From IMG/VR virus record IMGVR_UViG_3300032313_000319, positions 1 through 59,564 of that record: DNA of 59,564 nucleotides; one strand, written 5' to 3'. Positions 46,325-59,547 of the stretch are shown here, in pieces. Source of the stretch: a virus. Taxonomy: Duplodnaviria > Caudoviricetes. A program made the translations under genes and the position numbers. Numbering within the stretch: position 1 is the first letter of the stretch; every line of letters begins with the position of its first letter. A model generated the notes under the pieces. That model did not search any database. It was not told where the DNA came from and saw only the letters and a program-made list of their open reading frames with translations.

Positions 46325-46990
46325 ATGTCAATCTACCACCTTCATATACCCAGGACCAGCGGAGTATTTATCAGAGAGCAAATGATAAAGAAGACAGATA
46401 TGTCAATGTTTGTTGGACATAGAGAGCCAATTCCACAAAGCATGTCTGAGTATGAATATGTAAGTGGCCACTTTGCAACAAACTTTATTCAAGACTTTGA
46501 TACTAATTTTGCAATATATAGAAATCCAGTTGAACTTACATTTAGCTACATCAACTACATGAGGGACAATCTTTACAATCATCTATCTCTTGATGAGCTA
46601 ATAGAAGAATATGCGAAGACAGACAAGATCAAAAATTTTGTAAACATGAACTCTAAGTTTTTGACTGGAACAATGGATGTTTCTAAATATAACGAAATGA
46701 TAACAGACTTAAAAGAAGTTGCAGAATCTGGGTGGTATGTTGAAACAAAATGCAATACATTAGATATGTTTGTAGATATTATACAAAAAAATAATACATA
46801 TCTTGTAGATTATTCTGATAACAAAAAATATGAAAAGATATCTGAGCTTTACAAAGTTAACTACAACGATATTAAGATTAATAAGTCATCTGAAATTGAG
46901 GATGCCACAACTTCTAAATACTTCGAATTAATAACAGAATTAAACTCATTTGACTTGGAGGTGTATGAGTACCTTAAGGAACAAGCGTGA
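46325..46990 (+). CDS. Sulfotransferase-family protein
   Basis: HLHIPRTSG (5'-PSB-like), SGHF, YRNPVE..FS (3'-PB-like), N.FDLEVY. Confidence 0.7.
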   Translation: MSIYHLHIPRTSGVFIREQMIKKTDMSMFVGHREPIPQSMSEYEYVSGHFATNFIQDFDTNFAIYRNPVELTFSYINYMRDNLYNHLSLDELIEEYAKTDKIKNFVNMNSKFLTGTMDVSKYNEMITDLKEVAESGWYVETKCNTLDMFVDIIQKNNTYLVDYSDNKKYEKISELYKVNYNDIKINKSSEIEDATTSKYFELITELNSFDLEVYEYLKEQA

Positions 46991-47564
46991 GCCATGGAAC
47001 TTTGAAGATTTTGGCGAGGTAGAGGTATCAAGCATTCAAGATGAAGTCATTTCGTATTATAACGAATGGCTAGTTGATACTACTAGGCAAGACACATTCC
47101 AGACACATAAAGATACCTTCGCAATTCAGCTAACAGCCTTAGACTATGCTCATGGAATTGGCATGCCAGGAGATTGCATTACGACTAAAAAGCTTAATAA
47201 CGAATCTGCAAAGATTGAGCTTGATCAACTCATAAATAAAGTTGAGCAACTTGCTGCAGGAAAATTAATTCGTGCAGAGTTTATTAGCCTAAAGCCAAAA
47301 AGTCGAATCCGTCCACATAAGGATAGATCGGATCTGCTGTATTTGTCTAGAAGATTCCATGTTCCAATCAAGACAAATCCATATGTTACATTTTCTGCAG
47401 GAGCAGATGTTAGGCACCTATACGCTGGAAGACTGTATGAACTAAATAATATAAACTACCATGGTGTAAAGAATGATGGTAACGAAAATAGAATCCATCT
47501 GATTCTTGATGTGCTACCAGAACAATATCTCGAAGGGATAAGGTTTATCGATGAGACTGAATGA
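46965..47564 (+). CDS. Aspartyl/asparaginyl beta-hydroxylase-like 2OG oxygenase
   Basis: L.P.S.I.PHKD...RFHVPI.TN...YELNN...HGV.N.G...RIHLILD. Confidence 0.8.
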   Translation: MSTLRNKREPWNFEDFGEVEVSSIQDEVISYYNEWLVDTTRQDTFQTHKDTFAIQLTALDYAHGIGMPGDCITTKKLNNESAKIELDQLINKVEQLAAGKLIRAEFISLKPKSRIRPHKDRSDLLYLSRRFHVPIKTNPYVTFSAGADVRHLYAGRLYELNNINYHGVKNDGNENRIHLILDVLPEQYLEGIRFIDETE

Positions 47565-48544: not shown

Positions 48545-48874
48545 TTACTCTGGTTGTGTCTTGCATGGACACTTGTCATTGCAGCCACATGTCATTTTGT
48601 GTATGATCTTCATGGTTTTATTGTAGCATACCCTTTTCGTTACCAAAACGTTATCTTATATTGACCAAATCTGAAAAAATTTTCAAATTGACAAAAATCT
48701 GAATATTTTGTAAAGATGTACGATACATCCTCACACACAGAAAATAACCAGGATTAGTCCGCACACACCCGTACGACCCTAATGTTATAAATTTGTTACC
48801 TACTATGCCGTGTCTGACTTGCATAATGTCTGCCAATACTGATAGAGTATGACTATACAGAAAGAAGGAAACAA

Positions 48875-49045
48875 ATGCTAGTAACAATCAGAAACAACGA
48901 CAACACTGAAACCACCTTTGGCTTCGACCCTGAGCACAAGGCAGAGGCTATTGGCTTCTACACCAAGTTGTATTGGAACAGTGCCATTCAGGGATACCGC
49001 ATTCAGTTTGCAGATGGCTCTATCTTCAACATTGGAGCCAACTAA
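48875..49045 (+). CDS. Early microprotein (56 aa)
   Basis: AGAAAGAAGGA SD after promoter 48827. Confidence 0.7.
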   Translation: MLVTIRNNDNTETTFGFDPEHKAEAIGFYTKLYWNSAIQGYRIQFADGSIFNIGAN

Positions 49046-49110
49046 TGACTACTGAAGAACTAGAATACCTAATTGAACTAATTGACATAATGCTAATGGA
49101 TGAGGAGACT
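49045..49110 (+). CDS. 21-aa acidic peptide MTTEELEYLIELIDIMLMDED
   Basis: TAATG coupling; paralog at 51301. Confidence 0.5.
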
Positions 49111-49115
49111 AACTA

Positions 49116-49184
49116 ATGCTAGTAGACATTCTGCTTTGGGTAGCCGTTACCTTCATGGGTCTAGCAATGTTTAGTGCTAAGTAA
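49116..49184 (+). CDS. 22-aa hydrophobic peptide
   Basis: GAGGA SD; MLVDILLWVAVTFMGLAMFSAK. Confidence 0.45.
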   Translation: MLVDILLWVAVTFMGLAMFSAK

Positions 49185-49304
49185 ATGACTAGAGTAGCGA
49201 TATCAGTAACAGGTGCCCTGTTTGTTGCTTACCTGTATGTCAAGGTTCTAATGGCAGGATATACAATGACGATCCCATTCCTTGATATTGTAGTTTCTAT
49301 ATAG
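49185..49304 (+). CDS. 39-aa hydrophobic peptide
   Basis: Directly follows the previous stop; TM-like. Confidence 0.4.
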   Translation: MTRVAISVTGALFVAYLYVKVLMAGYTMTIPFLDIVVSI

Positions 49305-49450
49305 ATACGGCGTGTCGCTTGACATCTACCCTGGAAGGGGCTCGGGCCCCAAATGTAACAGAATGATAACTATCTACGAAACACGCTAAAAAAGTCCCAT
49401 AAATGTCAGACCCCTATGGTTAGATAATAGTAGTTAGAAAGGATACACAA

Positions 49451-49615
49451 ATGGATACTCTCAGATACAAGCAGTTGGACTCTCTAAACCTAGTTGAGGT
49501 AAAGAGAGAGTTGGCATTCTTTTTGGAACACGCCCAGCGTGCGAATTGGGATGTGTCTGATGAAACTATCGGATACATGAACCAACTAGATAGTGTTATC
49601 AAAGCGTTATCTTAG
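49451..49615 (+). CDS. Early microprotein (54 aa)
   Basis: AGAAAGGA SD; similar to 50596-50763. Confidence 0.65.
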   Translation: MDTLRYKQLDSLNLVEVKRELAFFLEHAQRANWDVSDETIGYMNQLDSVIKALS

Positions 49616-49757
49616 ACGGCGTGTCACAAACTAAAAATGTCGTACCCCCTCTGTAAATTTATAGTAGTTGGAAAAGGAATGAGCCTCAGCAAATAATCCA
49701 GAAATGGTGAGCCTGAGCAAATAAGTCCCCCAGCGTTGTATTAGAAAGGATAAATAA

Positions 49758-49964
49758 ATGTTTAGAGTAACAACAAGTGGATACCTAGTAGAGTGTGACT
49801 CTTGTGGTAATGAGGAGATCGCTTCCAATCTCCGTATGGCTAAGTCAGCCTTTGACTTCCATGAGTGTTCAGACAAGCCTAACAAGGTGTCTGACTACAC
49901 TTTGGTAGAGGCTAAAGACCCTATTGAGTTGGTCAAGCCTATGTTTAGTACTAACTGGTACTAG
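49758..49964 (+). CDS. Early small protein with CxxC
   Basis: AGAAAGGA SD, 68 aa. Confidence 0.7.
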   Translation: MFRVTTSGYLVECDSCGNEEIASNLRMAKSAFDFHECSDKPNKVSDYTLVEAKDPIELVKPMFSTNWY

Positions 49965-50172
49965 ATGTAGTGGGTGTACTCCTGGTCTACCCCCAGATCT
50001 AGGCTCGGGGGCCCCTAGATGTAGTATGCATACCCTGTTAAGACACTATATATAGATCCCCCAGAAAGTTTATAACAGATTTATAACAGATAGGGTAAAA
50101 GGGGTGTTTTGCTACCTAAAATGTCAGACCCTACCTGTAGATTTATAGCAGTTAGAAAGAAAGGTATCCCCA

Positions 50173-50382
50173 ATGACCACAATGTTCCGCAAGACCACCT
50201 GCAACGGATGCGGTATGTCTCAGACCACCAATGTCTCTTACCGCCTAGACAAGAAGTTGTGGGAGACCACTCACACTCTTGGCGTGTGCCGTCAGCGTAA
50301 GGCACTACTTACCAGAGAACTAGACTTCTCCAAGCCTGGAGCCAGCCTAAGAAACCTAGAATTGCTAAACAGCCTAAACTAA
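50173..50382 (+). CDS. Early small protein
   Basis: GAAAGG SD after promoter 50122. Confidence 0.65.
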   Translation: MTTMFRKTTCNGCGMSQTTNVSYRLDKKLWETTHTLGVCRQRKALLTRELDFSKPGASLRNLELLNSLN

Positions 50383-50431
50383 AATGTCAGACCCCTATGC
50401 TAGATTTTAGATAACTCAGAAAGAAGGAAAA

Positions 50432-50596
50432 ATGATTCAGTCAGTAATCACAGATGACACCAAGGGTATCCTAGTAGCAAAGTTGCAGGGTGTCCTAGAG
50501 CGTGACCTAACCGCTATGGAAGAGGCTATGGTTGAGTATACTCTCACCCAAGTCAGACTAGGCTTAGTTGACCTAGGCTTACAGGAGGTAAAGTAA
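50432..50596 (+). CDS. Early microprotein (54 aa)
   Basis: AGAAGGA SD after promoter 50385. Confidence 0.65.
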   Translation: MIQSVITDDTKGILVAKLQGVLERDLTAMEEAMVEYTLTQVRLGLVDLGLQEVK

Positions 50597-50763
50597 TGGA
50601 GAACTTTCGCAAGTTAGACATTCTCTCACTCTCAGAGGTTGAGCGTGAGGTTGACATAATGATAGAAATTATCGGTGATAGGATTCCTAGTGATGAGGAA
50701 TACAAGCAGGTATCAGAACTAATCAAACTAGCCAACTCGCTTGGCACAAAAAGAAAATGGTGA
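50596..50763 (+). CDS. Early microprotein (55 aa)
   Basis: AGGAGG SD, TAATG coupling. Confidence 0.65.
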   Translation: MENFRKLDILSLSEVEREVDIMIEIIGDRIPSDEEYKQVSELIKLANSLGTKRKW

Positions 50764-50766
50764 TGT

Positions 50767-50964
50767 ATGCACCCTAGGGAATTGCCAGGTATCAGAATCA
50801 CATACCGCCAAGCAGGCAAAAGAATAGATGACGCTTTTGTTTTTGCACCTACTCACGCTTGCACACTTTGCAAGGTAGGCGTTCAGGTCTGGAATGCAGA
50901 TAGATTCTGGGCTAGGCATAAAGACTGCATACCGCTTACCATACAAGAGTGGGTTGGGGTATAG
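50767..50964 (+). CDS. Early small protein
   Basis: 65 aa, CxxC...HxxC. Confidence 0.5.
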   Translation: MHPRELPGIRITYRQAGKRIDDAFVFAPTHACTLCKVGVQVWNADRFWARHKDCIPLTIQEWVGV

Positions 50965-51142
50965 TATTCCAATAATGGAATGGATCGGCCTCGGGGGCCC
51001 CTACATCTAGAGGCTATAATCATTTAAGACACCACATCTAGGATCCCCAGAATGTTATCATTCTGTTATAAAAATGTGGCGTGTGCTACTCAAAATGTCA
51101 GACCCCTATGTTAGATTTTAGGTAAGTAGAAAGAAGGTAAAA

Positions 51143-51301
51143 ATGTCAGAACAGATTTGCGTGTTTTGTATGAACTTGGTGAACGACTATGTTTGCCACG
51201 AATGTAACGACTACAAGGGGCTAATGCCACTTGACGAGGCTGAGAAGTATCTTGGCGAGGACTTTCCAGAGGAATACAAAGTAGCGGATTGGATTAGATA
51301 A
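51143..51301 (+). CDS. Zn-finger-like microprotein (52 aa)
   Basis: CVFC...CHEC; SD after promoter 51096. Confidence 0.7.
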   Translation: MSEQICVFCMNLVNDYVCHECNDYKGLMPLDEAEKYLGEDFPEEYKVADWIR

Positions 51302-51411
51302 TGAGCATCTCAGAACTAGAGGAACTAATCTACAAAATTGACCTAATGCTATCTGAGGACATAATGTCTGAGGGTATTAGTAATCTATTCTCAACCAAAG
51401 AAAGCGAGTAA
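51301..51411 (+). CDS. 36-aa acidic peptide
   Basis: TAATG coupling; ELEELIYKIDLMLSED. Confidence 0.5.
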   Translation: MSISELEELIYKIDLMLSEDIMSEGISNLFSTKESE

Positions 51412-51413
51412 CA

Positions 51414-51524
51414 ATGATTTTTTACAACGGCTTCAACCTACTAGTTGACATAATCCTAGTTTCAGTTGCGGTGTTTGTCACCTATCGCCTAACTAGGAGA
51501 AACAGCCACAAGGCTCCGTTCTAA
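51414..51524 (+). CDS. 36-aa membrane peptide
   Basis: After promoter 51365; LLVDIILVSVAVFV. Confidence 0.55.
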   Translation: MIFYNGFNLLVDIILVSVAVFVTYRLTRRNSHKAPF

Positions 51525-51667
51525 ACGACACGCCGAAGCCAGGACTTGACAAACCTGAGCTTTTGGCCTCGGGCCCCCAACCAAGATCATAAGTAGTTTA
51601 CGAAACAATTTAAGAAACTCCCAGAAATCTCCCCTAAAATGTCAGATAGGTCTGTTATACTTCAGGT

Positions 51668-51835
51668 ATGAAGAAGTTAGGTAAAGCAAATCAAGCAAGA
51701 CGCAAGGCTGAGTCACAGGCTCTATTCCTTGAGATGATGAAGAATCCTCACCTTGTAGTTACCCCCCAGAAATTCAAGGGCACACGCCAGAGCAACACTA
51801 GCAAGGCTATTAGAGAGAGTAGGGATAATGGGTAA
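51668..51835 (+). CDS. Basic microprotein (55 aa), leaderless
   Basis: ATG 6 nt after TATACT of promoter 51640. Confidence 0.65.
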   Translation: MKKLGKANQARRKAESQALFLEMMKNPHLVVTPQKFKGTRQSNTSKAIRESRDNG

Positions 51836-51965
51836 GTATAACTGTTCTAACTGTCAGAGGCTTCTACGCCCAGAGAAGTTTTACATTCAAGGTATCAATA
51901 ATGTCTGTACCCCCTGTTATGCTGTAATGGTTCAGCACCCCTCAGCAAGAAAGTTGGTAAAGTAA
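51828..51965 (+). CDS. Zn-finger-like microprotein (45 aa)
   Basis: CSNC...CTPC; coupled. Confidence 0.55.
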   Translation: MGKYNCSNCQRLLRPEKFYIQGINNVCTPCYAVMVQHPSARKLVK

Positions 51966-52159
51966 TGAGTAAGTATCCTGTAACTGTTCAGCTATCAGGT
52001 AACGATGGCAATGCCTTTGCAATAATGGGAGCAGTAAAGTCTGCCCTAAAAAAGGCTGGGGCAACTAATGAAGAGGTTGACAAGTATCTGGCAGACTCAA
52101 TGTCTGGAGACTATGACAACCTGTTACGTGTAGCAATGCAATGGGTGAATGTAAGATAA
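51965..52159 (+). CDS. Conserved small phage protein
   Basis: DGNAFAIMG.V..AL..AG...SGDYDNLL motif seen in many phages. Confidence 0.75.
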   Translation: MSKYPVTVQLSGNDGNAFAIMGAVKSALKKAGATNEEVDKYLADSMSGDYDNLLRVAMQWVNVR

Positions 52160-52206
52160 ATGTCAGACCCCTGTGGTAATCTTTAACTAACTTAGAAAGG
52201 ATACAG

Positions 52207-52380
52207 ATGAACAGCGACAAGGTATTGGAATACGCAAAAGAGCAAGTAAACGGCGGAAGCCCTTATGCTTTTGCTTTTGGTATGGCTTGGGCTTCCCTAA
52301 GCAAAACCGCCCAAAAGGAACTAACCAAATACGCAGAACAGCAACTAGCCCTAATCAAGGCAGAAAGAGGGGAGAACTAA
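52207..52380 (+). CDS. Early microprotein (57 aa)
   Basis: AGAAAGGA SD after promoter 52161. Confidence 0.65.
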   Translation: MNSDKVLEYAKEQVNGGSPYAFAFGMAWASLSKTAQKELTKYAEQQLALIKAERGEN

Positions 52381-52661
52381 TGGGTTCACTTCAGGCAAGA
52401 GAGATGGCAGAAATGCTATCTATGGAAGACGCTATCGCTTGGCACTTGCAGAGCAACCACTATCCACCTGTGCCACTATCTATGGTTGAGCCTTGTATTG
52501 AGGCTATCAAGAACGCTCTTGCTGGTGACTGGTGGAAGCCTGTTGAGTTGCCTAACCCTGTCAAGTATAAGGGAAGCACTCACGCTCCAACTTCCGCTAT
52601 CCTTGAGCAACACCACCTTGCCCCTTGGCTAGAGCTTGATGAGGAGGGGCTTGAGGACTAA
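52380..52661 (+). CDS. Hypothetical protein (93 aa)
   Basis: GGGGAG SD, TAATG coupling; WHLQSNHYPPVP motif. Confidence 0.7.
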   Translation: MGSLQAREMAEMLSMEDAIAWHLQSNHYPPVPLSMVEPCIEAIKNALAGDWWKPVELPNPVKYKGSTHAPTSAILEQHHLAPWLELDEEGLED

Positions 52662-52774
52662 CCTCAGCCCTTCTGGGCCCCGAGCCCTGATCACGATCCT
52701 ATAACAGGTTACGATTACGTACTAAAATGTCCTACCCCTAGGCTATACTTTAGTTAGTTAGAGAGGATACCCCA

Positions 52775-53491
52775 ATGCTTATTAGGTCTAAAGATAGGAA
52801 AGTAACTAATGCAGTATCTCCAAATGGTAAAACGCCGACTATTGCGAACACGTTTGGGCTACCTTCTGGTAAGGCTTATTCCTGCCCTGGAGCCACATCT
52901 GTATGCGAGAAAATCTGTTACGCTGGCAAACTCGAAAAAGTCTACAAGGGTGTAAAGGATGTTCTAGTCAACAACTGGAACCAACTAAAAGACGCTAAGT
53001 ATGAGACTATGGTTTCACTACTTGATGAAATGATTATTAGTTTCAAGTCTGACTGTGACAAGCGTAATGCAGACAAGCTATTCCGAATTCACTGGGATGG
53101 CGACTTCTTCAATGTCACTTACACTATAGCTTGGGCTACTGTAATCAAAAAGCATTCTGATGTTCAGTTCTGGGTATACACTCGCAGCGACTTTGCGGTT
53201 CCAATTCTAAAGGGTATCGCTAATCTATCGCTATACTTTTCTACTGATGATGACAACTGGCAGCTGGCAAGCAACCTAAAGACACTTCATGATGTAAAGC
53301 TTGCTTATCTTGCTAACAACTTTGCAATGGGTAAAGAGCGTATGTTGTCTATCACGCCTAAGTCTGCAATTCCATGCCCTGAGAATGCTAAGAAACTACC
53401 ACTGATTAGTGACAAGGGTTCCGCCTGTGTTACCTGTGGGCAGTGTGTGTTTGAGCGTAATGACATCCTGTTCAGTGCTAGTAAAAAGTAA
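52775..53491 (+). CDS. GP88-like (radical-SAM-related) phage protein
   Basis: FGLP...SCPGAT..C...CYA, FRIHWDGDF, FWVYTR, C-terminal CP...C..CG.C. Confidence 0.7.
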   Translation: MLIRSKDRKVTNAVSPNGKTPTIANTFGLPSGKAYSCPGATSVCEKICYAGKLEKVYKGVKDVLVNNWNQLKDAKYETMVSLLDEMIISFKSDCDKRNADKLFRIHWDGDFFNVTYTIAWATVIKKHSDVQFWVYTRSDFAVPILKGIANLSLYFSTDDDNWQLASNLKTLHDVKLAYLANNFAMGKERMLSITPKSAIPCPENAKKLPLISDKGSACVTCGQCVFERNDILFSASKK

Positions 53492-53520
53492 TTGACAGCA
53501 TTCTGGATAAGGAATATAAT
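53492..53520 (+). promoter_or_regulatory. Consensus sigmaA promoter
   Basis: TTGACA-17-TATAAT. Confidence 0.75.
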
Positions 53521-53525
53521 ATATT

Positions 53526-53597
53526 GTGGATAATATAGGAATCATAATTGTGCTTCTCTTAATGGCTATAACACTAGTGTTAACCAATAAGAAATAA
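53526..53597 (+). CDS. Possible 23-aa leaderless membrane peptide
   Basis: GTG 5 nt after TATAAT; MDNIGIIIVLLLMAITLVLTNKK. Confidence 0.4.
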   Translation: MDNIGIIIVLLLMAITLVLTNKK

Positions 53598-53598
53598 A

Positions 53599-53681
53599 CT
53601 CATAGGGGAATATGAGACGGTCCGCTCCTTTCTAACTAACTGACATGCGGACCACGTCCTGGCCATGACGTAAAACTGGCC
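53599..53681 (+). ncRNA. Candidate structured RNA (hairpin + anti-SD-loop hairpin + pseudoknot)
   Basis: CTCATA/TATGAG; GGTCCGC/GCGGACC; ACGTC/GACGT with GGCCA/TGGCC. Confidence 0.5.
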
Positions 53682-53787
53682 ACCTCAACGCCCGAGGGCA
53701 GATCACAATTTGATAACCAATTACGATTAAGATATAAAATGTCCCACCCCCAGAGTATAATGGTCTTATCAGTTAGAGAGGACAGTA

Positions 53788-53910
53788 ATGGACGAGCAAG
53801 CAGCAGAGATTAGAGAAAACCTAGCAGAATACTACGCTAACCCAGAAGAGTATTCTCTTGAGGACTTTGAGGACATCTTCCAAGATCGTGACCCGTTTGA
53901 GTTTCTATAA
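53788..53910 (+). CDS. 40-aa highly acidic peptide
   Basis: GAGAGGA SD after promoter 53740; ...EDFEDIFQDRDPFEFL. Confidence 0.65.
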   Translation: MDEQAAEIRENLAEYYANPEEYSLEDFEDIFQDRDPFEFL

Positions 53911-53956
53911 ATGTCATACCCCCAGTTTATAATAATCTAAACAGAAAGAAGGAATA

Positions 53957-54508
53957 ATGGGAACTAGAGGACTAACTAAGGTTGTTTACAAGGGTGAGAC
54001 TATTGTTGCACAGTATGGACAATGGGACCACTACCCAGAGGGACAGGGTGTTACCTTGTTTTACGCTCTGCAAGACCCTGATGTGGTAAAGCGTTTTATT
54101 GAGAAGATTCCACAGATTTACTACCCCAGCGACTCTGATGTAGAAGCAATGTGCAAGCCATTTGAGGATGGTTCTTCGGCAGGTATGATGACCTTTGAGT
54201 CTGGTGATAAGTTTGCAAAGAAGTATCCAACTCTAACCAGAAATACTGGTGGAGAGATTTTCAGGGTAATCGCTGACTGGGATGACTCACCTATCCCTAT
54301 TGTCAGGGACTTGGACTTTGAGAATGACGAGTTGTTCTGTGAGGGTCTTTACACTATCAACTTGGACCAAGAGTTCTTTCACACCCAGTTTAGCAAGTAT
54401 AAGGGTTCTTGGGACATCTCACTCTTGGTTGGCTTTGAGTCTCTAAGGGAGATGAAGGGTCCAGATGACTACCTTGAGAGTTGCAAGGATTCTCAATTAG
54501 TTAGGTAA
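53957..54508 (+). CDS. Conserved hypothetical phage protein
   Basis: MGTRG...QYGQWDHYPEGQG motif; SD. Confidence 0.75.
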   Translation: MGTRGLTKVVYKGETIVAQYGQWDHYPEGQGVTLFYALQDPDVVKRFIEKIPQIYYPSDSDVEAMCKPFEDGSSAGMMTFESGDKFAKKYPTLTRNTGGEIFRVIADWDDSPIPIVRDLDFENDELFCEGLYTINLDQEFFHTQFSKYKGSWDISLLVGFESLREMKGPDDYLESCKDSQLVR

Positions 54509-54631
54509 CACGCTACCCCCAGGACTTGACATCTTGGGGGCTAGTGCCTCGGGGGCCCACAGGATCTTTGTCAATTTACGAAACCTACAAAAAATCCCCC
54601 AAAACTTTGTAGAAAAACTTTGCCCAAATGC

Positions 54632-54660
54632 TTGACATTGACTTACTTTTCTGGGACAAT
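54632..54660 (+). promoter_or_regulatory. SigmaA-type promoter
   Basis: TTGACA-17-GACAAT with extended TG. Confidence 0.55.
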
Positions 54661-54728
54661 TGAGTATCACCAAACGGGGATACATAAATCAAAACAGACC
54701 TTGATAAGAGGTCGGAATAGGAAGCAAA

Positions 54729-54875
54729 ATGTCAAACCTAACTGTTGGCTCACAGTTCACCACCGCTAAGTCTGGCGTGTCTGGTGTTATTCAGGAAGTA
54801 GTAGCAAACAAGAACGGCTCTTTCCGTGTCCGTCTTGATGTTGCTGGTCAGCCTCGCTGGACTACTGTAAAGTAA
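54729..54875 (+). CDS. 48-aa beta-rich microprotein
   Basis: AGGAAG SD; MSNLTVGSQFTTAKSGVSGVIQEV...RWTTVK. Confidence 0.7.
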   Translation: MSNLTVGSQFTTAKSGVSGVIQEVVANKNGSFRVRLDVAGQPRWTTVK

Positions 54876-54982
54876 TGTAAGACTTGGGGGGGTAGCGTTT
54901 CTTATCCTTTCTCTACCCTCCCACTTACTAAAATGTCACACCCCACCCTTACAATAGAACTACCCTGAAAGAAAGAAGACTA

Positions 54983-55204
54983 ATGTCTGGCAAGATTGTT
55001 GCTCTAAAGAAAAACCAACGCCTAACCGTTCGCACAGAGATTTGGAACACCAAGTCTGGCGAGGGTATCAAGGCTGTTGTCCGTAACCCAAACGGCACTT
55101 TTGATGGTGCTACCAACCAGACCCGTTTCTTGGCTATGCCAGAACCAAAGGTCATTGTCAGGACTATTACTGAACCTCGCAAAAAGGTATTCGGTATTTT
55201 CTAG
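54983..55204 (+). CDS. Basic small protein
   Basis: After promoter 54934. Confidence 0.65.
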   Translation: MSGKIVALKKNQRLTVRTEIWNTKSGEGIKAVVRNPNGTFDGATNQTRFLAMPEPKVIVRTITEPRKKVFGIF

Positions 55205-55291
55205 GCAGATGTGCTGGGTATCACAATAAACTACCCAAAATGTCACACCCCTCCCCTATAATGTAATTACCCTAAAAGAAAGCAGAAACAA

Positions 55292-55747
55292 ATGGCTAGA
55301 ACCCTTTCCGTAAAAATCCCAACCGCAACTCTAATCGCTGACATTGAGGCAACTATTGCCAAGATTGACGCTGATGTTGAGGCATACCCTGAGAAGGTAA
55401 AGCAGTATGAGGCAGACCTAGCAAACTACAAGACTAGCGTTGTCAAGTTTGCTACTGACTACATTACCGCCAACGCTGACAAGATTGGCTTTGACTATGA
55501 CAGCACCATTCGTCTAGTTCAGAACCACTACTCTCAGAACAAGTTTGAGATTGAGTTGGACATTTCGGTTATTGCTAACTTCCCTGAGAAGCCTGTAAAG
55601 CCAAGCCAGCCAAACCAGAACGAGCACTTTGGCAGGGAATACACCACTCGCAAGGCAATTCTTGAGAAGAACCTTCGTATCCTAAAGATGACCTCGCAAG
55701 AGGAAGTGAACGCAAGTTCCTACTCCTCTGTGATTGACCTAATCTAA
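55292..55747 (+). CDS. Hypothetical protein (151 aa)
   Basis: After promoter 55241. Confidence 0.8.
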   Translation: MARTLSVKIPTATLIADIEATIAKIDADVEAYPEKVKQYEADLANYKTSVVKFATDYITANADKIGFDYDSTIRLVQNHYSQNKFEIELDISVIANFPEKPVKPSQPNQNEHFGREYTTRKAILEKNLRILKMTSQEEVNASSYSSVIDLI

Positions 55748-55751
55748 GGGA

Positions 55752-55960
55752 GATACACCTGAGTAAGTGGGTAAACTGCTCACCAAACTTCCAACTAACC
55801 TAGGAACGGTTGGCTGTGCTGATGGCTCTAACAGTAGTCAGATGAGCAAGACCTATTAGATGAACCGCAAGGACTCTAAGGGCAAGGATACCACCCTGCT
55901 ATCGGTTGAAGCATAGGTCAGAAATGATACTACCTGATGCCCTCGCTTGGGTGGTTTTTC
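55752..55960 (+). ncRNA. Candidate structured non-coding RNA
   Basis: No ORF of 60 aa or more; pseudoknot motif, GACCTAT/ATAGGTC, TTAGA/TCTAA, CC-GCAA-GG and TCA-GAAA-TGA GNRA loops. Confidence 0.4.
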
Positions 55961-56100
55961 CTTATCTGGATCCTGGCCCTCGGGGCCCGTTACAAAATTG
56001 TTATTTACGATGTCCAATTATTTTTCCCTAGATTCTTTACAATGTCAGACCTTCCCTGTATACTTGTCCTATCAGTAATCCCTAACAGAAAGTAGCCCCT

Positions 56101-57093
56101 ATGGCACACGAACTAGAAACCGTAAACGGACAGACCGCTTTTGCTTCTTTGCGTGAACCTGCTTGGCATGGACTTGGAACCGTCTTCACTGAGGAAGTTT
56201 CCACAGCCGAAATGCTAAAGTTGGCACACCTAGACAATTGGAATGTCCGTCTTGAAGATGTAGCAATTCCAGAAGGCTTTGCCTCTGACCGTTCATTCTC
56301 TTTTGTTACCAGAACCAACCCATTCAACTCAGAACAGAATGATGTTCTTGGTGTTGTTGGTGAGCGTTATGTTCCGCTTCAGAATGAAGACCTATTTGAC
56401 TTTGGTGACCTAATGCTAGACGGCGGTGGTCGCTGGGAAACTGCTGGCTCTATCAAGGGTGGCAGACAAGTCTTTGGTTCTCTTGCTCTTGAGCGTGAAA
56501 CCGTTCTTGACCCTAATGGCGTGTCTGACAAGGTAAACACCTATCTTCTAATCAACACCTCTCATGACGGCTCAGTTGCTATTCAGGCTTCAATCACACC
56601 TGTGCGTGTTGTTTGTGCTAACACCTTGAACCTAGCCCTAAAGGGTAAGGCTAAGCAGTCTTTCAAGATTCGCCACACCTCTACCGCTTCTGGCAAGGTT
56701 GCTCAGGCTAGAGAGGCTCTTGGCTTGGCTAACCTATATATGAATGAGTTTGACAAAATGGCTCAGGAAATGATTAGCAAGGAAATCAACAAGGCTAAGT
56801 TTGATGAGATTGTTGCTCTTGCTTACCCTGCCCCTGAGAAAGACGCTAAGGGTTCATTCAAGAAATACAACGATAAGATTGACTTGATTCAGTCTATCTA
56901 TGTAGGTGACTACAACAAGACCATTGCTGGAACTGCTTGGGGTGCTTTCAATGCTCTGACTGAGCGTTTGGATTGGTATCGCTCTGGGCGTGGTGGTGAC
57001 AACGAGAGTATTCTCGCTGCTGCTTCTGGCTTTGACCCTGTGACTACTGCTGAGAAGAACCGCTTGCTTCAGTTGGTATTGGCTAACGCCTAG
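56101..57093 (+). CDS. DUF932 / TIGR03299-like phage-plasmid protein
   Basis: PAWHGLG, LGVVGERY.P.QN, ETAGS..GGR.VF, YLL..TSHDGS, TPVRVVCANTL, RHT, GTAWGAFNA.TE. Confidence 0.85.
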   Translation: MAHELETVNGQTAFASLREPAWHGLGTVFTEEVSTAEMLKLAHLDNWNVRLEDVAIPEGFASDRSFSFVTRTNPFNSEQNDVLGVVGERYVPLQNEDLFDFGDLMLDGGGRWETAGSIKGGRQVFGSLALERETVLDPNGVSDKVNTYLLINTSHDGSVAIQASITPVRVVCANTLNLALKGKAKQSFKIRHTSTASGKVAQAREALGLANLYMNEFDKMAQEMISKEINKAKFDEIVALAYPAPEKDAKGSFKKYNDKIDLIQSIYVGDYNKTIAGTAWGAFNALTERLDWYRSGRGGDNESILAAASGFDPVTTAEKNRLLQLVLANA

Positions 57094-57277
57094 TCTATTC
57101 CTTCCTGGGTATGAAGTAAAACTGCCCAACAAACATATTCCAAGATCGTTATGGGCCTCGGGCCATAACTACTTAGACAAATACATTTACGAAACTAATT
57201 AAGAAACCCCCAAATTGTTTCCCTAAAATGTCTGACCCCCACCCTATACTTGTAAGCAAGTAGGAAAGGAAGGCAAA

Positions 57278-57469
57278 GTGCCTAGATTTTACATTCAAAT
57301 GAAAGTTGATTTTGCTGGAGAGATTGAGGCAGACTCAAAGGAACACGCTGAGGAATTGGCTTGGACATCTTGGGGTGACACAACAGGAGACGCTATCTCT
57401 TATGACGGTGTTTACTCTATTGATGTTGAGGAACTAGATGAGGAAGATGAGGATGAAGATGACGAGTAA
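57278..57469 (+). CDS. Small acidic protein
   Basis: AAGGAAGG SD; EIEADSKEHAEELA; poly-D/E tail. Confidence 0.7.
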   Translation: MPRFYIQMKVDFAGEIEADSKEHAEELAWTSWGDTTGDAISYDGVYSIDVEELDEEDEDEDDE

Positions 57470-57563
57470 CACTTGGGAACCAACTCCAGGAGGAGTATGG
57501 GATTCTTTCTTTCGTGAGATAGGCTTTGATAACGGAGATAGTGAGGAAGACGAAGATGAGTGA
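57459..57563 (+). CDS. 34-aa acidic peptide
   Basis: GAGGA SD inside the previous acidic tail. Confidence 0.5.
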   Translation: MTSNTWEPTPGGVWDSFFREIGFDNGDSEEDEDE

Positions 57564-57684
57564 TACCTTTACCATTGAAAGACCTGAATACCTTTCGGAT
57601 TCAGCTTGGGAAGCTCTATGCGAAGCTGTTGAGCGTTATGTAGAAGAGTGGGAAGAGTGGGAGGATGAAGATGACGATGACTAA
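57556..57684 (+). CDS. 42-aa acidic peptide
   Basis: Coupled; ends EEWEEWEDEDDDD. Confidence 0.55.
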   Translation: MSDTFTIERPEYLSDSAWEALCEAVERYVEEWEEWEDEDDDD

Positions 57685-57853
57685 GTCTTGGTATGATGAC
57701 CTACCAACTTACGGTGACGGTACTATCTATCTTATGAAGATAAAGGGTGACCCTTATGACAAGTATAGGTGTATGGGGTGTTATAAGACTTGGCTATCTA
57801 CCGCCAAGAAAATGGGACACAAGGAAGCTGCTTGTAGGAGGCAACGAGGATAA
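57665..57853 (+). CDS. Small protein with C2H-C Zn-finger-like motif
   Basis: YRCMGC...H...C; start uncertain. Confidence 0.55.
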   Translation: MKMTMTKSWYDDLPTYGDGTIYLMKIKGDPYDKYRCMGCYKTWLSTAKKMGHKEAACRRQRG

Positions 57854-58254
57854 TGTCATACCCTAATGCTATAGTGGACACTATGAATGAGACTATTGTA
57901 TGCCCCAACCACAATGGCAGTTTTGACTGCAACCCCTTTTGCCGTATCTGTGAGGGTAATCAAGAAACTACCCTTACCAACCTAATAGAACAAGCAAGCA
58001 CTGTTGCTTATGACGGTTGCCACAAAATCTATCTCAATATGGATAGTGTCCAGACTGATAAGATGATTAGTTATGGCTATTCAAATATCGTTGGTGGAAC
58101 TGCTTGGGAAAAGGAATATGCCGTATGGAATTGGTATGAAGATTCCTGTGGGCTAAGATTCATTGACGCTGTATTCACTAATGACGATGACACTGATAAG
58201 TTTGTTATTGTTGTTCCACAATTCTTTGGAGAGGATGAAGATGTTACCGATTGA
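57853..58254 (+). CDS. Hypothetical Cys-containing protein
   Basis: CPNH.GSFDC.PFC.IC; DGCHKIY; SCGLRFI. Confidence 0.7.
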   Translation: MSYPNAIVDTMNETIVCPNHNGSFDCNPFCRICEGNQETTLTNLIEQASTVAYDGCHKIYLNMDSVQTDKMISYGYSNIVGGTAWEKEYAVWNWYEDSCGLRFIDAVFTNDDDTDKFVIVVPQFFGEDEDVTD

Positions 58255-58363
58255 GGACTACCGCAAACTACTAGACGCAATAATGTCAGAGGGTCTTGAT
58301 AAAATAGACTCACTATCAGATGAATCACTTAGACAACTAATGCTACTAGTAGGAGAGAAATGA
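58241..58363 (+). CDS. Small hypothetical protein (about 40 aa)
   Basis: Probable start MLPIED after GAGGA; contains promoter 58284. Confidence 0.45.
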   Translation: MLPIEDYRKLLDAIMSEGLDKIDSLSDESLRQLMLLVGEK

Positions 58364-59159: not shown

Positions 59160-59188
59160 TTGACTTTTTCCCCAGAATCTGAGATAAT
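59160..59188 (+). promoter_or_regulatory. SigmaA-type promoter
   Basis: TTGACT-17-GATAAT with extended TG. Confidence 0.5.
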
Positions 59189-59212
59189 TGAGTATCAAGA
59201 AAGTAGGAATTC

Positions 59213-59311
59213 ATGAAGTGCTATGAATGCGAAGCACCAATAGTAGACGGTAACTTTTACTATTCATTTGAAGACACCAATGAAATTTGCCCTAAGTGTT
59301 ATGGAGAATAA
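59213..59311 (+). CDS. 32-aa Zn-finger-like peptide
   Basis: CYEC...CPKC; AGGA SD. Confidence 0.55.
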   Translation: MKCYECEAPIVDGNFYYSFEDTNEICPKCYGE

Positions 59312-59547
59312 TGCAAGTATATGCAGATAAGAGACCATCAGTAAATTCAACCACATGGACCAGGATCTTCCACAGTGGCAATGCAGAGGTACATGAGTCA
59401 GATCTCTATTACGATTACTATAGAGTTATTATGAAGGATGGATCTGCACCCCCGAAACTTTTCTTTGGAGAGTCTGCATGGATGAATTGCCAACGATATG
59501 TAGTTGACAAGATTGGCATGCAGGGGTATAATGTATTTAGTAAGTAA
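59311..59547 (+). CDS. Hypothetical protein
   Basis: TAATG coupling; KLFFGESAW motif. Confidence 0.6.
   Translation: MQVYADKRPSVNSTTWTRIFHSGNAEVHESDLYYDYYRVIMKDGSAPPKLFFGESAWMNCQRYVVDKIGMQGYNVFSK

What the first reader, a model, noticed from the sequence alone, without database searches (positions are those of the whole stretch)
48827..58305. Early genes driven by 17 promoters matching the actinobacterial PafBC / RecA-independent DNA-damage promoter
Seen: 16 of 17 copies fit exactly TGTCnn-N10-TAnnnT (e.g. TGTCAG acccctatgc TAGATT at 50385; TGTCAG accttccctg TATACT at 56043; TGTCAC acccctcccc TATAAT at 55241). They are usually preceded by an A-run and lie just upstream of an SD/ATG. The fixed 10-nt spacer rules out an ordinary -35. 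Knowledge: mycobacterial RecA-NDp promoters (TGTCRG-N10-TAnnnT) are activated by the WYL-domain heterodimer PafBC, which senses ssDNA and redirects sigmaA polymerase to a -26 element. Inference: the phage wires most of its early programme to the host LexA-independent damage response, possibly triggered by its own incoming DNA, or encodes a PafBC mimic elsewhere. I know of no description of this strategy.
Basis: partly seen in the sequence, partly recalled or inferred. Interest (0 to 1): 0.88.

Follow-up and report, generated by a model that had tools for sequence, protein, structure and literature searches.

The report
Lake phage promoters copying PafBC boxes
An uncultured lake phage of actinobacteria drives a 10-kb block of small genes from about 19 promoters built like the promoters that its hosts' DNA-damage activator PafBC switches on, so it probably borrows that host switch, though nothing has been tested at the bench.

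Summary
On the + strand of 48.8-58.3 kb, 18 sites fit TGTC-N12-TAnnnT exactly and one more nearly does. About one would be expected by chance. All 18 exact sites are preceded by AA, and 15 of the 19 lie 23-36 nt before a start codon.

The same array is found in a large family of about 110-kb uncultured freshwater phages: 1174 forward against 198 reverse sites in 80 related loci. Their complete genomes carry WhiB, so the hosts are actinobacteria.

The box has the geometry published for PafBC, tGTCgg(N10)tA(N3)T (PMC8635444). It also shares the unselected preferences G6-W7-S8-S9 with sites I found in actinobacterial genomes. Those sites precede a DnaQ/GIY-YIG exonuclease gene in 23 of 27 genomes and recA in 5 of 5.

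Four complete relatives show no WYL domain, PafB- or PafC-like HTH, or sigma factor.

PafBC dependence, damage induction and early timing are all inferred. The claim that the spacing rules out a -35 is too strong. One of 18 copies here, and 13% in relatives, also carry TTGACA-like hexamers at 17-nt spacing.

This scan has already reported the same thing on other DNA: 85 notes in at least 82 genomes.

The parts
48827..48848 (+). TGTC-box promoter (ataaTGTCTG-N10-TAGAGT), 26 nt before ATG 48875 (56 aa)
49404..49426 (+). Near-copy: aaaTGTCAGACCCC..TTAGAT/TAGATA. The -10 is one base out of register. It lies 24 nt before ATG 49451 (54 aa).
   Evidence: read; does not match the exact pattern
49638..49659 (+). 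TGTC-box promoter (aaaaTGTCGT-N10-TAAATT); next ORF with a ribosome site is 49758 (68 aa), 98 nt on
50122..50143 (+). TGTC-box promoter, 29 nt before ATG 50173 (69 aa)
50385..50406 (+). TGTC-box promoter, 25 nt before ATG 50432 (54 aa)
51096..51117 (+). TGTC-box promoter, 25 nt before ATG 51143 (52 aa)
51365..51386 (+). TGTC-box promoter of the AGGG spacer type, inside the 3' end of ORF 51301-51411, 27 nt before ATG 51414
   Evidence: the AGGG type is common in relatives
51640..51661 (+). TGTC-box promoter, only 6 nt before ATG 51668 (55 aa), so the mRNA is probably leaderless or nearly so
51902..51923 (+). TGTC-box promoter inside ORF 51828-51965, 41 nt before ATG 51965 (64 aa)
52161..52182 (+). 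TGTC-box promoter, 24 nt before ATG 52207 (57 aa)
52728..52749 (+). TGTC-box promoter, 25 nt before ATG 52775 (GP88 family, 238 aa)
53740..53761 (+). TGTC-box promoter, 26 nt before ATG 53788 (40 aa)
53912..53933 (+). TGTC-box promoter, 23 nt before ATG 53957 (183 aa)
54934..54955 (+). TGTC-box promoter, 27 nt before ATG 54983 (73 aa)
55241..55262 (+). TGTC-box promoter, 29 nt before ATG 55292 (151 aa)
56036..56064 (+). TGTC-box promoter that also has a -35-like TTTACA at 17-nt spacing. It lies 36 nt before ATG 56101 (DUF932, 330 aa). In relatives the orthologous site reads cTTGACAATGTC..TATAAT.
57229..57250 (+). TGTC-box promoter, 27 nt before GTG 57278 (63 aa)
57854..57875 (+). Pattern match overlapping the ATG of ORF 57853-58254; the weakest candidate
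58284..58305 (+). TGTC-box promoter of the AGGG type inside a coding overlap, 54 nt before ATG 58360 (44 aa)
54632..54669 (+). Second promoter class without a TGTC box: TTGACA-17-GACAAT with TG before the -10, followed by TGAGTATCA
   Evidence: 31 forward and 1 reverse copies in 80 related loci
59160..59197 (+). Second copy of that class: TTGACT-17-GATAAT followed by TGAGTATCA
53492..53520 (+). Perfect TTGACA-17-TATAAT promoter-like site just after the GP88 gene
59504..59532 (+). Perfect TTGACA-17-TATAAT promoter-like site inside ORF 59296-59547

Best explanation
The 19 sites are real promoters read by the host's housekeeping (sigmaA-type) RNA polymerase. Each has a TAnnnT -10. About a third also have a correctly placed TGn extension. 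Instead of a -35, each has the box AATGTCRGWSS at -30 to -20.

This box is the -26 element of the promoter class that Actinobacteria use for DNA-damage genes. The most likely mechanism runs as follows. The host heterodimer PafBC, once loaded with single-stranded DNA, sits between sigma region 4 and the TGTC box ('sigma adaptation') and starts transcription of nearly every gene in this 10-kb block of small phage genes.

Shown:
- the sites exist, face one way and are conserved in hundreds of related phages;
- their sequence and spacing equal those of host sites;
- the hosts are actinobacteria, whose genomes carry PafBC-like gene pairs;
- complete relatives of the phage have no recognisable PafBC, sigma factor or phage-type polymerase.

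Inferred:
- that PafBC binds these sites;
- that single-stranded DNA made during infection (from incoming ends, nuclease attack or replication) is the trigger;
- that the block is expressed early.
For: 1. Reality of the sites.
- Window: 27 matches against 10.4 +/- 3.1 in shuffles, with 18 on one strand within 9.5 kb. Spacer 12 is sharply preferred.
- Relatives: 1174 forward and 198 reverse sites in 80 related loci, 1,272,647 bases in all.
- Four complete relatives each have one cluster, with strand counts 18/1, 13/4, 20/1 and 11/2. Backwards-read controls give 0-5.

2. Match to PafBC promoters.
- The published consensus is tGTCgg(N10)tA(N3)T. PafB contacts -28 to -23, and the GTC triplet is conserved across actinobacteria (PMC8635444).
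- Positions not fixed by my pattern agree between phage and host sites. In 1075 unique phage-family sites: G6 76%, A/T7 93%, G/C8 87%, G/C9 92%. In 23 host sites: G6 78%, A/T7 74%, G/C8 83%, G/C9 100%.
- One relative (G003) uses ATGTCGGTGG. From memory, that is the mycobacterial form.

3. Host sites.
- One site at exactly this spacing lies within 250 nt upstream of a DnaQ-type exonuclease/GIY-YIG gene in 23 of 27 genomes. Six other spacings give 0 of 27 each, the opposite strand gives 2 of 27, and shuffles average 0.06.
- Five of 5 small genomes have the site before recA, next to a LexA-type box.
- Sites also precede rmuC, ligA and dnaX.
- In a 1.38-Mb genome (G100) sites precede recA, a PD-(D/E)XK nuclease and two genes with LexA-type boxes.
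- The rmuC site of an Aquiluna-labelled MAG reads AATGTCAGACCC, the form used in this window.

4. PafBC in hosts.
- The WYL domain is found in 200 of 201 sampled genomes of the class.
- Tandem PafB-like and PafC-like genes are present in G005, with HTH_PafC at 41.4 bits against a cut-off of 32, and in G100.

5. No phage substitute in 4 complete relatives: WYL 0 of 4, HTH_PafC 0 of 4, PafB N-terminus 0 of 4, Sigma70_r2 0 of 4.
Against: - No experiment or transcript 5' end supports any step.
- The host species is unknown.
- The window record is only 53% complete, so the absence of a phage factor rests on relatives.
- The PafB N-terminus search had no positive control.
- The phage box differs from host boxes just upstream. 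It has AA at -30/-29 in 18 of 18 copies here and in 84-85% of copies in relatives. Host exonuclease sites show no preference there, and host recA sites have T.
- This window prefers ACCCC after TGTCAG. The small genomes I examined mostly have TGG or TGC there.
- In relatives 143 of 1075 copies, and 1 of 18 here, also have a good -35 at 17-nt spacing. Those copies could fire without any activator.
- Ordinary -35/-10 promoters sit in the same block. They could express a phage activator first, as in T4.
- Twenty small ORFs of the block match no Pfam family above its cut-off, so a novel factor cannot be excluded.
- In G100 the genome-wide excess is modest: 14 sites at N10 against 3-7 at other spacings, while the reversed-word control gives 9.
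- A Streptomyces relative (TunaTartare) has no array: 0 forward and 1 reverse, with controls 5 and 4. The trait is therefore not general to the wider phage family.
Confidence: 0.55

Rival explanations
1. A phage-encoded activator reads the TGTC box. It could be a small early protein or a pair of them, working like T4 MotA/AsiA, or a protein injected with the DNA. The few ordinary -35/-10 promoters would be the true early promoters, and the TGTC class would be delayed-early or middle. The likeness to host PafBC promoters would then be convergence, or a factor that also turns on host repair genes.
For: - Ordinary promoters are present in the block: TTGACA-17-TATAAT at 53492 and 59504, and the TTGAC-17-GAYAAT-TGAGTATCA class at 54632 and 59160.
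- That second class is conserved in relatives, 31 forward against 1 reverse, and replaces the TGTC promoter before the DUF932 gene in some relatives.
- The invariant AA before the box is not a feature of the host sites.
- Twenty small ORFs have no known function.
- With no sigma factor or phage polymerase found, the phage must have unknown regulators for its late genes anyway.
Against: - An unrelated factor would have to hit the same six-base box, the same 10-nt spacing and the same G6-W7-S8-S9 preferences as host sites.
- No WYL domain, HTH_PafC domain or PafB-like ORF was found in 4 complete relatives.
- No transcription-factor domain was found in the 20 small ORFs.
Confidence: 0.25
2. The sites are constitutive host-polymerase promoters. 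The TGTC box would not be an activator site. The -10, the TGn extension, the A-tract and (in some copies) a -35 would suffice. The box would be a family-specific spacer signature, or a contact for sigma or another general factor.
For: - About a third of the copies here have a correctly placed TGn before the -10, and copies without it tend to have TATAAT.
- The A-run could act like an UP element.
- 13% of copies in relatives have a canonical -35.
Against: - TGTC, G6 and the exact spacing are conserved far more strongly than a neutral spacer would be, over hundreds of diverged phages.
- Seventeen of 18 copies here lack a usable -35.
- The source paper states that RNAP-sigmaA alone does not recognise PafBC-type promoters (PMC8635444).
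- In host genomes the same box marks DNA-repair genes, not housekeeping genes in general.
Confidence: 0.1
3. The box is an operator for a repressor, phage or host, that overlaps each promoter. This would resemble the asymmetric 'stoperator' sites of cluster A mycobacteriophages (recalled from memory). It would shut the block off rather than turn it on.
For: - Many identical, one-way sites lie in a single block.
- In copies that carry TTGACA, the sequence GACAATGTC is a palindrome, which could suit a dimer.
Against: - Every site keeps a fixed distance to a -10 and a near-fixed distance to a start codon. This is a property of a promoter element, not of dispersed operators.
- Most copies lack the palindrome.
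- The sites are confined to one block and do not spread over the genome.
Confidence: 0.05

Closest known systems
PafBC-dependent (RecA-NDp) promoters of Mycobacterium and other Actinobacteria, read by 'sigma adaptation' (PMC8635444; PMC11804915)
   Same: - Box TGTCRG at -28 to -23.
- Exactly 10 nt to a TAnnnT -10.
- Usually no -35.
- The same unselected preferences at positions 6-9.
- Actinobacterial setting.

   Different: - The promoters sit in a lytic-type phage, 19 within 10 kb, before small genes of unknown function rather than repair genes.
- AA before the box is invariant.
- The leaders carry ribosome-binding sites, whereas most host examples here are leaderless.
- A minority also have a -35.
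- Binding by PafBC is untested.
T4 middle promoters (MotA box at -30 plus a -10, read through AsiA/MotA 'sigma appropriation'; mentioned in PMC8635444, otherwise recalled)
   Same: - A phage promoter class in which a box about one helical turn upstream of a normal -10 replaces the -35.
- It is mixed with ordinary early promoters in the same region.
   Different: - The box sequence differs.
- No MotA or AsiA relative was sought or seen here.
- Here the box equals a host activator's site, so no phage factor may be needed.
Phage genes wired to the host SOS response through LexA boxes, in temperate phages (recalled, not searched)
   Same: A phage couples its gene expression to the host's DNA-damage sensing.
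   Different: - Those systems use repression by LexA at one or a few switches, and serve prophage induction.
- Here an activator-type promoter is repeated before nearly every gene of a block, in a phage with no sign of lysogeny in the window.
Streptomyces phages of the family Stanwilliamsviridae (e.g. TunaTartare)
   Same: The capsid protein is 41% identical and the genome size class is similar.
   Different: TunaTartare shows no array: 0 forward and 1 reverse, with controls 5 and 4.

Membership tests
PafBC-type (RecA-NDp) promoter class | -26 element tGTCgg with the GTC triplet | tested here: met
   TGTC is present in 18 exact copies plus 1 near copy. At position 6, G occurs in 61% of copies here and 76% of 1075 copies in relatives. 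In host sites it is 78%.
PafBC-type (RecA-NDp) promoter class | Exactly 10 nt between TGTCnn and the -10 | tested here: met
   With the ATGTC anchor, spacer 12 after TGTC gives 18 hits on +, against 1-6 for eight other spacings. Host sites: 23 of 27 at this spacing and 0 of 27 at six others.
PafBC-type (RecA-NDp) promoter class | Canonical sigmaA -10 (TAnnnT) | tested here: met
   18 of 19 copies. A at the fourth position is 83% here and 71% in relatives.
PafBC-type (RecA-NDp) promoter class | No -35 element | tested here: inconclusive
   Seventeen of 18 copies here have 3 or fewer of 6 matches to TTGACA at 17-nt spacing. One copy (56036) has 5 of 6. In relatives 143 of 1075 have 5 or more of 6.
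PafBC-type (RecA-NDp) promoter class | The host encodes PafB and PafC | tested here: inconclusive
   The host species is unknown. WYL is found in 200 of 201 sampled genomes of the class, a tally that includes 7 unpublished genomes. Tandem PafB/PafC-like pairs are present in G005 and G100.
PafBC-type (RecA-NDp) promoter class | PafBC binds and activates; induced by DNA damage or single-stranded DNA | not testable with these tools
   Needs reporter assays, in vitro transcription or binding assays.
Ordinary sigmaA/sigma70 -35/-10 promoters | TTGACA-like hexamer 16-18 nt upstream of the -10 | tested here: not met
   Only 1 of 18 copies meets it. Sigma70-like sites overall are not enriched in 45.0-59.6 kb: 32 against 34.1 +/- 6.6.
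T4-type middle promoters (MotA/AsiA) | Phage-encoded MotA and AsiA homologues and a TGCTT-type box | not tested
   The box sequence differs on inspection. I did not search for MotA or AsiA families. Twenty small ORFs of the block match no Pfam family above its cut-off.
Promoters of a phage-encoded polymerase or sigma factor | The phage encodes such an enzyme or factor | tested here: not met
   Sigma70_r2 is found in 0 of 4 complete relatives, and the control genomes did match. T7-type RNA_pol is found in 0 of 4, but that search matched no control genome either, so it is weak evidence.
Stoperator-type repressor sites (cluster A mycobacteriophages; recalled) | Sites dispersed through the genome without a fixed relation to a -10 | tested here: not met
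   The sites keep a fixed spacing to the -10 and are confined to one 8-10-kb block per genome.

The most novel reading that the evidence does not exclude
An abundant family of virulent lake phages has made the host's single-stranded-DNA alarm (PafBC) its own master switch. DNA ends or replication intermediates of the infecting phage would load PafBC, which would then fire about 19 phage promoters at once. The array of strong sites might also draw PafBC away from the host's repair genes. A host sensor thought of as part of damage repair and anti-phage signalling would then be the phage's early or middle activator, with no phage transcription factor needed.
Probability: 0.35. Interest if true: 0.85.

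Novelty: new variant of a known kind. Interest (0 to 1): 0.7.

Why it matters
If PafBC does drive these promoters, a whole block of a lytic phage's programme would be run by a host stress activator rather than by phage factors or plain promoters. I found no description of this in five literature searches.

It would make PafBC, and WYL sensors in general, a point where phage and host compete. It would also give a simple portable test, because the box is conserved across Actinobacteria and can be assayed in laboratory strains even though the natural hosts are uncultured.

The phage family is large and widespread. One search found 518 relatives in the viral collection. Freshwater and lake-water metagenomes from several studies share part of the stretch; I laid two of the DNA runs and related contigs cover all 30 bins. 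The mechanism would therefore bear on the ecology of abundant lake actinobacteria.

Tried and rejected
DIRECT RELATIVES AMONG CULTURED PHAGES
- Megablast of 48.6-59.6 kb against 50,697 phage records found no match.
- The window has no tRNA gene, so that route gives no host clue.

HOST FROM THE PHAGE WHIB
- All are phage-like contigs binned into lake MAGs of unrelated taxa: Methylococcus, Polynucleobacter, Chitinophagaceae, Flavobacterium, Acidimicrobiaceae and Aquiluna.
- It names no host. I used two of these loci only as entry points to actinobacterial genomes.

UNRELATED PHAGE LINEAGES
- This test would favour a host factor if unrelated lineages carried the array.
- The 37 further contigs that hold the 16-mer are all fragments, 12-62% complete, apart from one. 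34 of the 37 carry matches.
- The only complete record, a 65-kb provirus, has none.
- The test was uninformative.

STRICTER HOST PATTERN
- AATGTCNG-N10-TANNNT in five small genomes gave 8 hits against 6 in backwards-read controls. There is no numerical excess.
- The value lay only in which genes followed the hits.

METATRANSCRIPTOME
- One RNA run (X20, kept as contigs) holds related sequence, at 85% likeness or more.
- It lies mostly over 54.5-55.8 kb, with summed depth 37-94 there and 0-11 elsewhere.
- Contigs cannot show starts or strand, and DNA may be present in the library. It is no evidence about promoter use, and the uncovered parts say nothing.

CONTEXT BEYOND THE BLOCK
- In relative L131 the region holds more unknown ORFs, an HNH endonuclease, a beta-propeller protein and, on the other strand, a pyrimidine-dimer glycosylase.
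- This does not help with timing.

PAPERS
- Rafique et al. 2025 is not held.

STRUCTURE TOOLS
- I did not use structure prediction, complex prediction, the protein atlas or the large protein searches. None would test promoter use.

Full report
WHAT THE WINDOW IS

The window is a whole record from a viral metagenome collection. It is 59,564 bases long, linear, and estimated to be 53% complete. Its G+C content is about 40%. Structural genes lie on the minus strand up to about 45 kb. They include a portal protein, a capsid protein, tail proteins and a 2761-aa ORF. From 46.3 kb to the end the genes are small and lie on the plus strand.

The capsid protein is at most 41-42% identical to those of about 130-kb Streptomyces phages such as TunaTartare, family Stanwilliamsviridae. 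The plus-strand block holds a GP88-family gene and a DUF932 gene. DNA search found no close cultured relative.

THE OBSERVATION

TGTC-N12-TAnnnT, which is the same as TGTCnn-N10-TAnnnT, occurs 27 times in the window. Shuffles give 10.4 +/- 3.1, and 0 of 100 shuffles reach 27. Eighteen of the matches lie on the plus strand between 48827 and 58305.

With ATGTC as anchor, the 12-nt spacing gives 18 plus-strand hits. Eight other spacings give 1-6. A stricter form with the CCC run gives 12 forward hits, no reverse hits and none in the controls. One more copy at 49404 has its -10 one base out of register.

All 18 exact copies have AA before the box. Fifteen of the 19 lie 23-36 nt before a start codon that follows an AGAAAGGA-type ribosome site. 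One (51640) is 6 nt from its ATG. One (57854) overlaps an ATG and is doubtful.

CONSERVATION IN RELATED PHAGES

The DUF932 protein finds 518 relatives in the viral collection, of which 80 loci were kept. In those 80 loci (1,272,647 bases) the pattern occurs 1174 times on the gene strand and 198 times on the other.

In 1075 unique copies, the positions I did not fix are also constrained:
- A at -1 (84%) and at 0 (85%);
- G at position 6 (76%);
- A or T at position 7 (93%);
- G or C at positions 8 and 9 (87% and 92%);
- TG at positions 14-15 in about half;
- A at the fourth base of the -10 (71%).

Four complete relatives of 112-117 kb each have one cluster of 8-10 kb. Their strand counts are 18/1, 13/4, 20/1 and 11/2, and backwards-read controls give 0-5. 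Different relatives use ACCC, AGGG or TGG after TGTCNG. G003 reads ATGTCGGTGG. From memory, not from a call, that is the mycobacterial TGTCRGTG form.

The Streptomyces phage TunaTartare has no array: 0 forward and 1 reverse, with controls of 5 and 4.

COMPARISON WITH THE KNOWN PROMOTER CLASS

The passages I read in PMC8635444 give the in vivo PafBC motif as tGTCgg(N10)tA(N3)T. They place the PafB contact at -28 to -23. They say the GTC triplet is conserved across actinobacteria, that such promoters have no -35, and that RNAP-sigmaA alone does not recognise them. The abstract of PMC11804915, seen in the listing, says single-stranded DNA activates PafBC. The phage box has the same sequence, position and spacing.

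THE HOST SIDE, TESTED HERE

All 4 complete relatives encode a WhiB protein. In the control genomes this family matched only Corynebacterium. The hosts are therefore actinobacteria.

Two lake MAGs reached through mis-binned phage contigs served as entry points. One is labelled Aquiluna (G005) and one Acidimicrobiaceae (G006). Each has two adjacent WYL genes. In G005 these are a WYL+WCX protein followed by an HTH_PafC+WYL+WCX protein.

WYL is found in 200 of 201 genomes sampled from the class of G005. That tally includes seven unpublished genomes.

A search for the phage-like form of the box in five small genomes gave no numerical excess: 8 hits against 6 in controls. But the hits lie 6-7 nt before leaderless genes for a DnaQ-type exonuclease/GIY-YIG protein (in two genomes) and for DnaX. 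One lies 27 nt before an RmuC gene and one 167 nt before a gene for NAD-dependent DNA ligase. The RmuC site reads AATGTCAGACCC, as in this window.

I then took the exonuclease gene as a probe. It is found in 54 of 61 sampled genomes. Thirty loci were returned, and I dropped three that come from unpublished genomes. Of the remaining 27:
- 23 have one site at exactly this spacing within 250 nt upstream;
- 0 of 27 have a site at any of six other spacings;
- 2 of 27 have one on the opposite strand;
- shuffled sequences average 0.06.

Their variants (TGTCGGTGG, TGTCGGACCC, TGTCAGACCG, TGTCGGAGGG, TGTCACACCCC) are the same ones the phage family uses. Their unselected positions show G6 78%, A/T7 74%, G/C8 83% and G/C9 100%.

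Five of five genomes of 1.4-1.5 Mb have tTGTC(A/G)GTG(G/C)-N-TAnnnT upstream of recA. A TCGAAC-N4-GTTCG box follows it. From memory, that is the LexA box of actinobacteria.

I fetched one such genome nearly whole (G100, 1.38 Mb, 48.5% G+C). It has a tandem PafB/PafC-like pair. It has 14 TGTC[AG]G-N10-TAnnnT sites, against 3-7 at other spacings. The reversed-word control gives 9, so the genome-wide excess is modest.

The genes behind these sites include recA, a PD-(D/E)XK nuclease, a LysM gene and a DUF6504 gene (both with LexA-type boxes), carD, a C5 DNA methylase and a trypsin-like peptidase.

IS THERE A PHAGE SUBSTITUTE?

In the window and four complete relatives I found none of the following:
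- a WYL domain;
- an HTH_PafC domain at E up to 1;
- an ORF like the PafB N-terminus at E up to 1, though this search had no positive control;
- a Sigma70_r2 domain;
- a T7-type polymerase, though this search matched no control genome either.

Twenty small ORFs of the block match no Pfam family above its cut-off. A recognisable mimic is therefore not present. A novel small factor remains possible.

WHAT COMPLICATES THE READING

First, aligning the region upstream of the DUF932 gene in 73 unique relatives gives the consensus cTTGACAATGTCnGagg..TATAAT. TTGACA ends one base before TGTC, which puts it at the normal 17-nt distance from the -10. The box therefore does not exclude a -35. Here only 56036 has one (TTTACA). 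In relatives 143 of 1075 copies match TTGACA at 5 or 6 of 6 positions. Shifted controls give 0-7 such copies, except the 18-nt spacing, which gives 43.

Second, the block has promoters without the box. There are two perfect TTGACA-17-TATAAT sites at 53492 and 59504. There is also a conserved class, TTGAC(A/T)-17-GA(C/T)AAT followed by TGAGTATCA, at 54632 and 59160. That class occurs 31 times forward and once in reverse in relatives. In some relatives it replaces the TGTC promoter before DUF932. These promoters could express a phage activator first.

Third, the invariant AA before the box is not seen in host sites.

VERDICT

The sites are promoters of the PafBC class by every sequence criterion I could test. 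They sit in phages of PafBC-bearing hosts, and no detectable phage substitute is present. Activation by host PafBC is the best explanation; I put it at about 0.55. A phage-encoded reader of the same box is the main rival, at about 0.25. Timing, trigger and host species are all inferences.

I found no published description in five searches. One possibly relevant paper could not be read, and supplements are closed.

Earlier follow-ups in this scan reached the same reading on related phages. This window is therefore another member of a phenomenon the scan already holds.

Noticed in passing
window 49341, 50004, 50990, 51568, 52679, 54548, 55979, 57157, 59106: G+C-rich hairpins centred on CTCGGG (one of them on CCCGAG), without a following T-run, stand after genes of the block. 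The full six-base core occurs nowhere else in the window except at 53691, also inside the block. They look like gene-end signals of each one-gene cassette.
   Followed up: partly
window 51598, 52709, 53721, 54576, 56005, 57187, 59149: A TTACGA(A/T) motif, often TTTACGAAAC, lies between the hairpin and the next promoter. Fifteen copies are on the + strand of the window, nine of them beyond 48 kb, and five are on the - strand. Its function is unknown.
   Followed up: no
window 54632-54669 and 59160-59197; 31 copies in related loci: A second conserved promoter class, TTGAC(A/T)-17-GA(C/T)AAT, is followed by (T/A)GAGTATCA. The conserved tail after the -10 suggests a shared transcript start or leader.
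   Followed up: partly
related loci, e.g. L131 upstream of 10001; L142, L144: Where TTGACA precedes the box, the two form the palindrome GACAATGTC.
   Followed up: no
G100 450.9-462.6 kb (loci L290, L291): Five of the 14 TGTC[AG]G-N10-TAnnnT sites of this 1.38-Mb genome lie in one 12-kb stretch. They precede a C5 DNA methylase, a trypsin-like peptidase and two paralogous genes for proteins with signal-peptide-like N-termini. This may be a defence or mobile island under the same damage-type promoter.
   Followed up: partly
G100 101229 (locus L273): A site of the same form lies 24 nt before the carD gene, which encodes a general RNA-polymerase-binding factor.
   Followed up: no
window 54.5-55.8 kb: In one freshwater metatranscriptome kept as contigs, related sequence piles up over the three genes 54729-55747 (summed depth 37-94) and is low elsewhere in the block. 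Contigs cannot show whether this is RNA.
   Followed up: partly
L131 19996-20463 (-) and window 46950-47564 (+): A relative encodes a pyrimidine-dimer DNA glycosylase beside an Asp/Asn hydroxylase-like gene. The window has the hydroxylase-like gene just upstream of the promoter block.
   Followed up: no
loci L215-L220: Contigs of this phage family are binned into lake MAGs labelled Methylococcus, Polynucleobacter, Chitinophagaceae, Flavobacterium, Acidimicrobiaceae and Aquiluna. This is binning contamination that could mislead host assignment.
   Followed up: no
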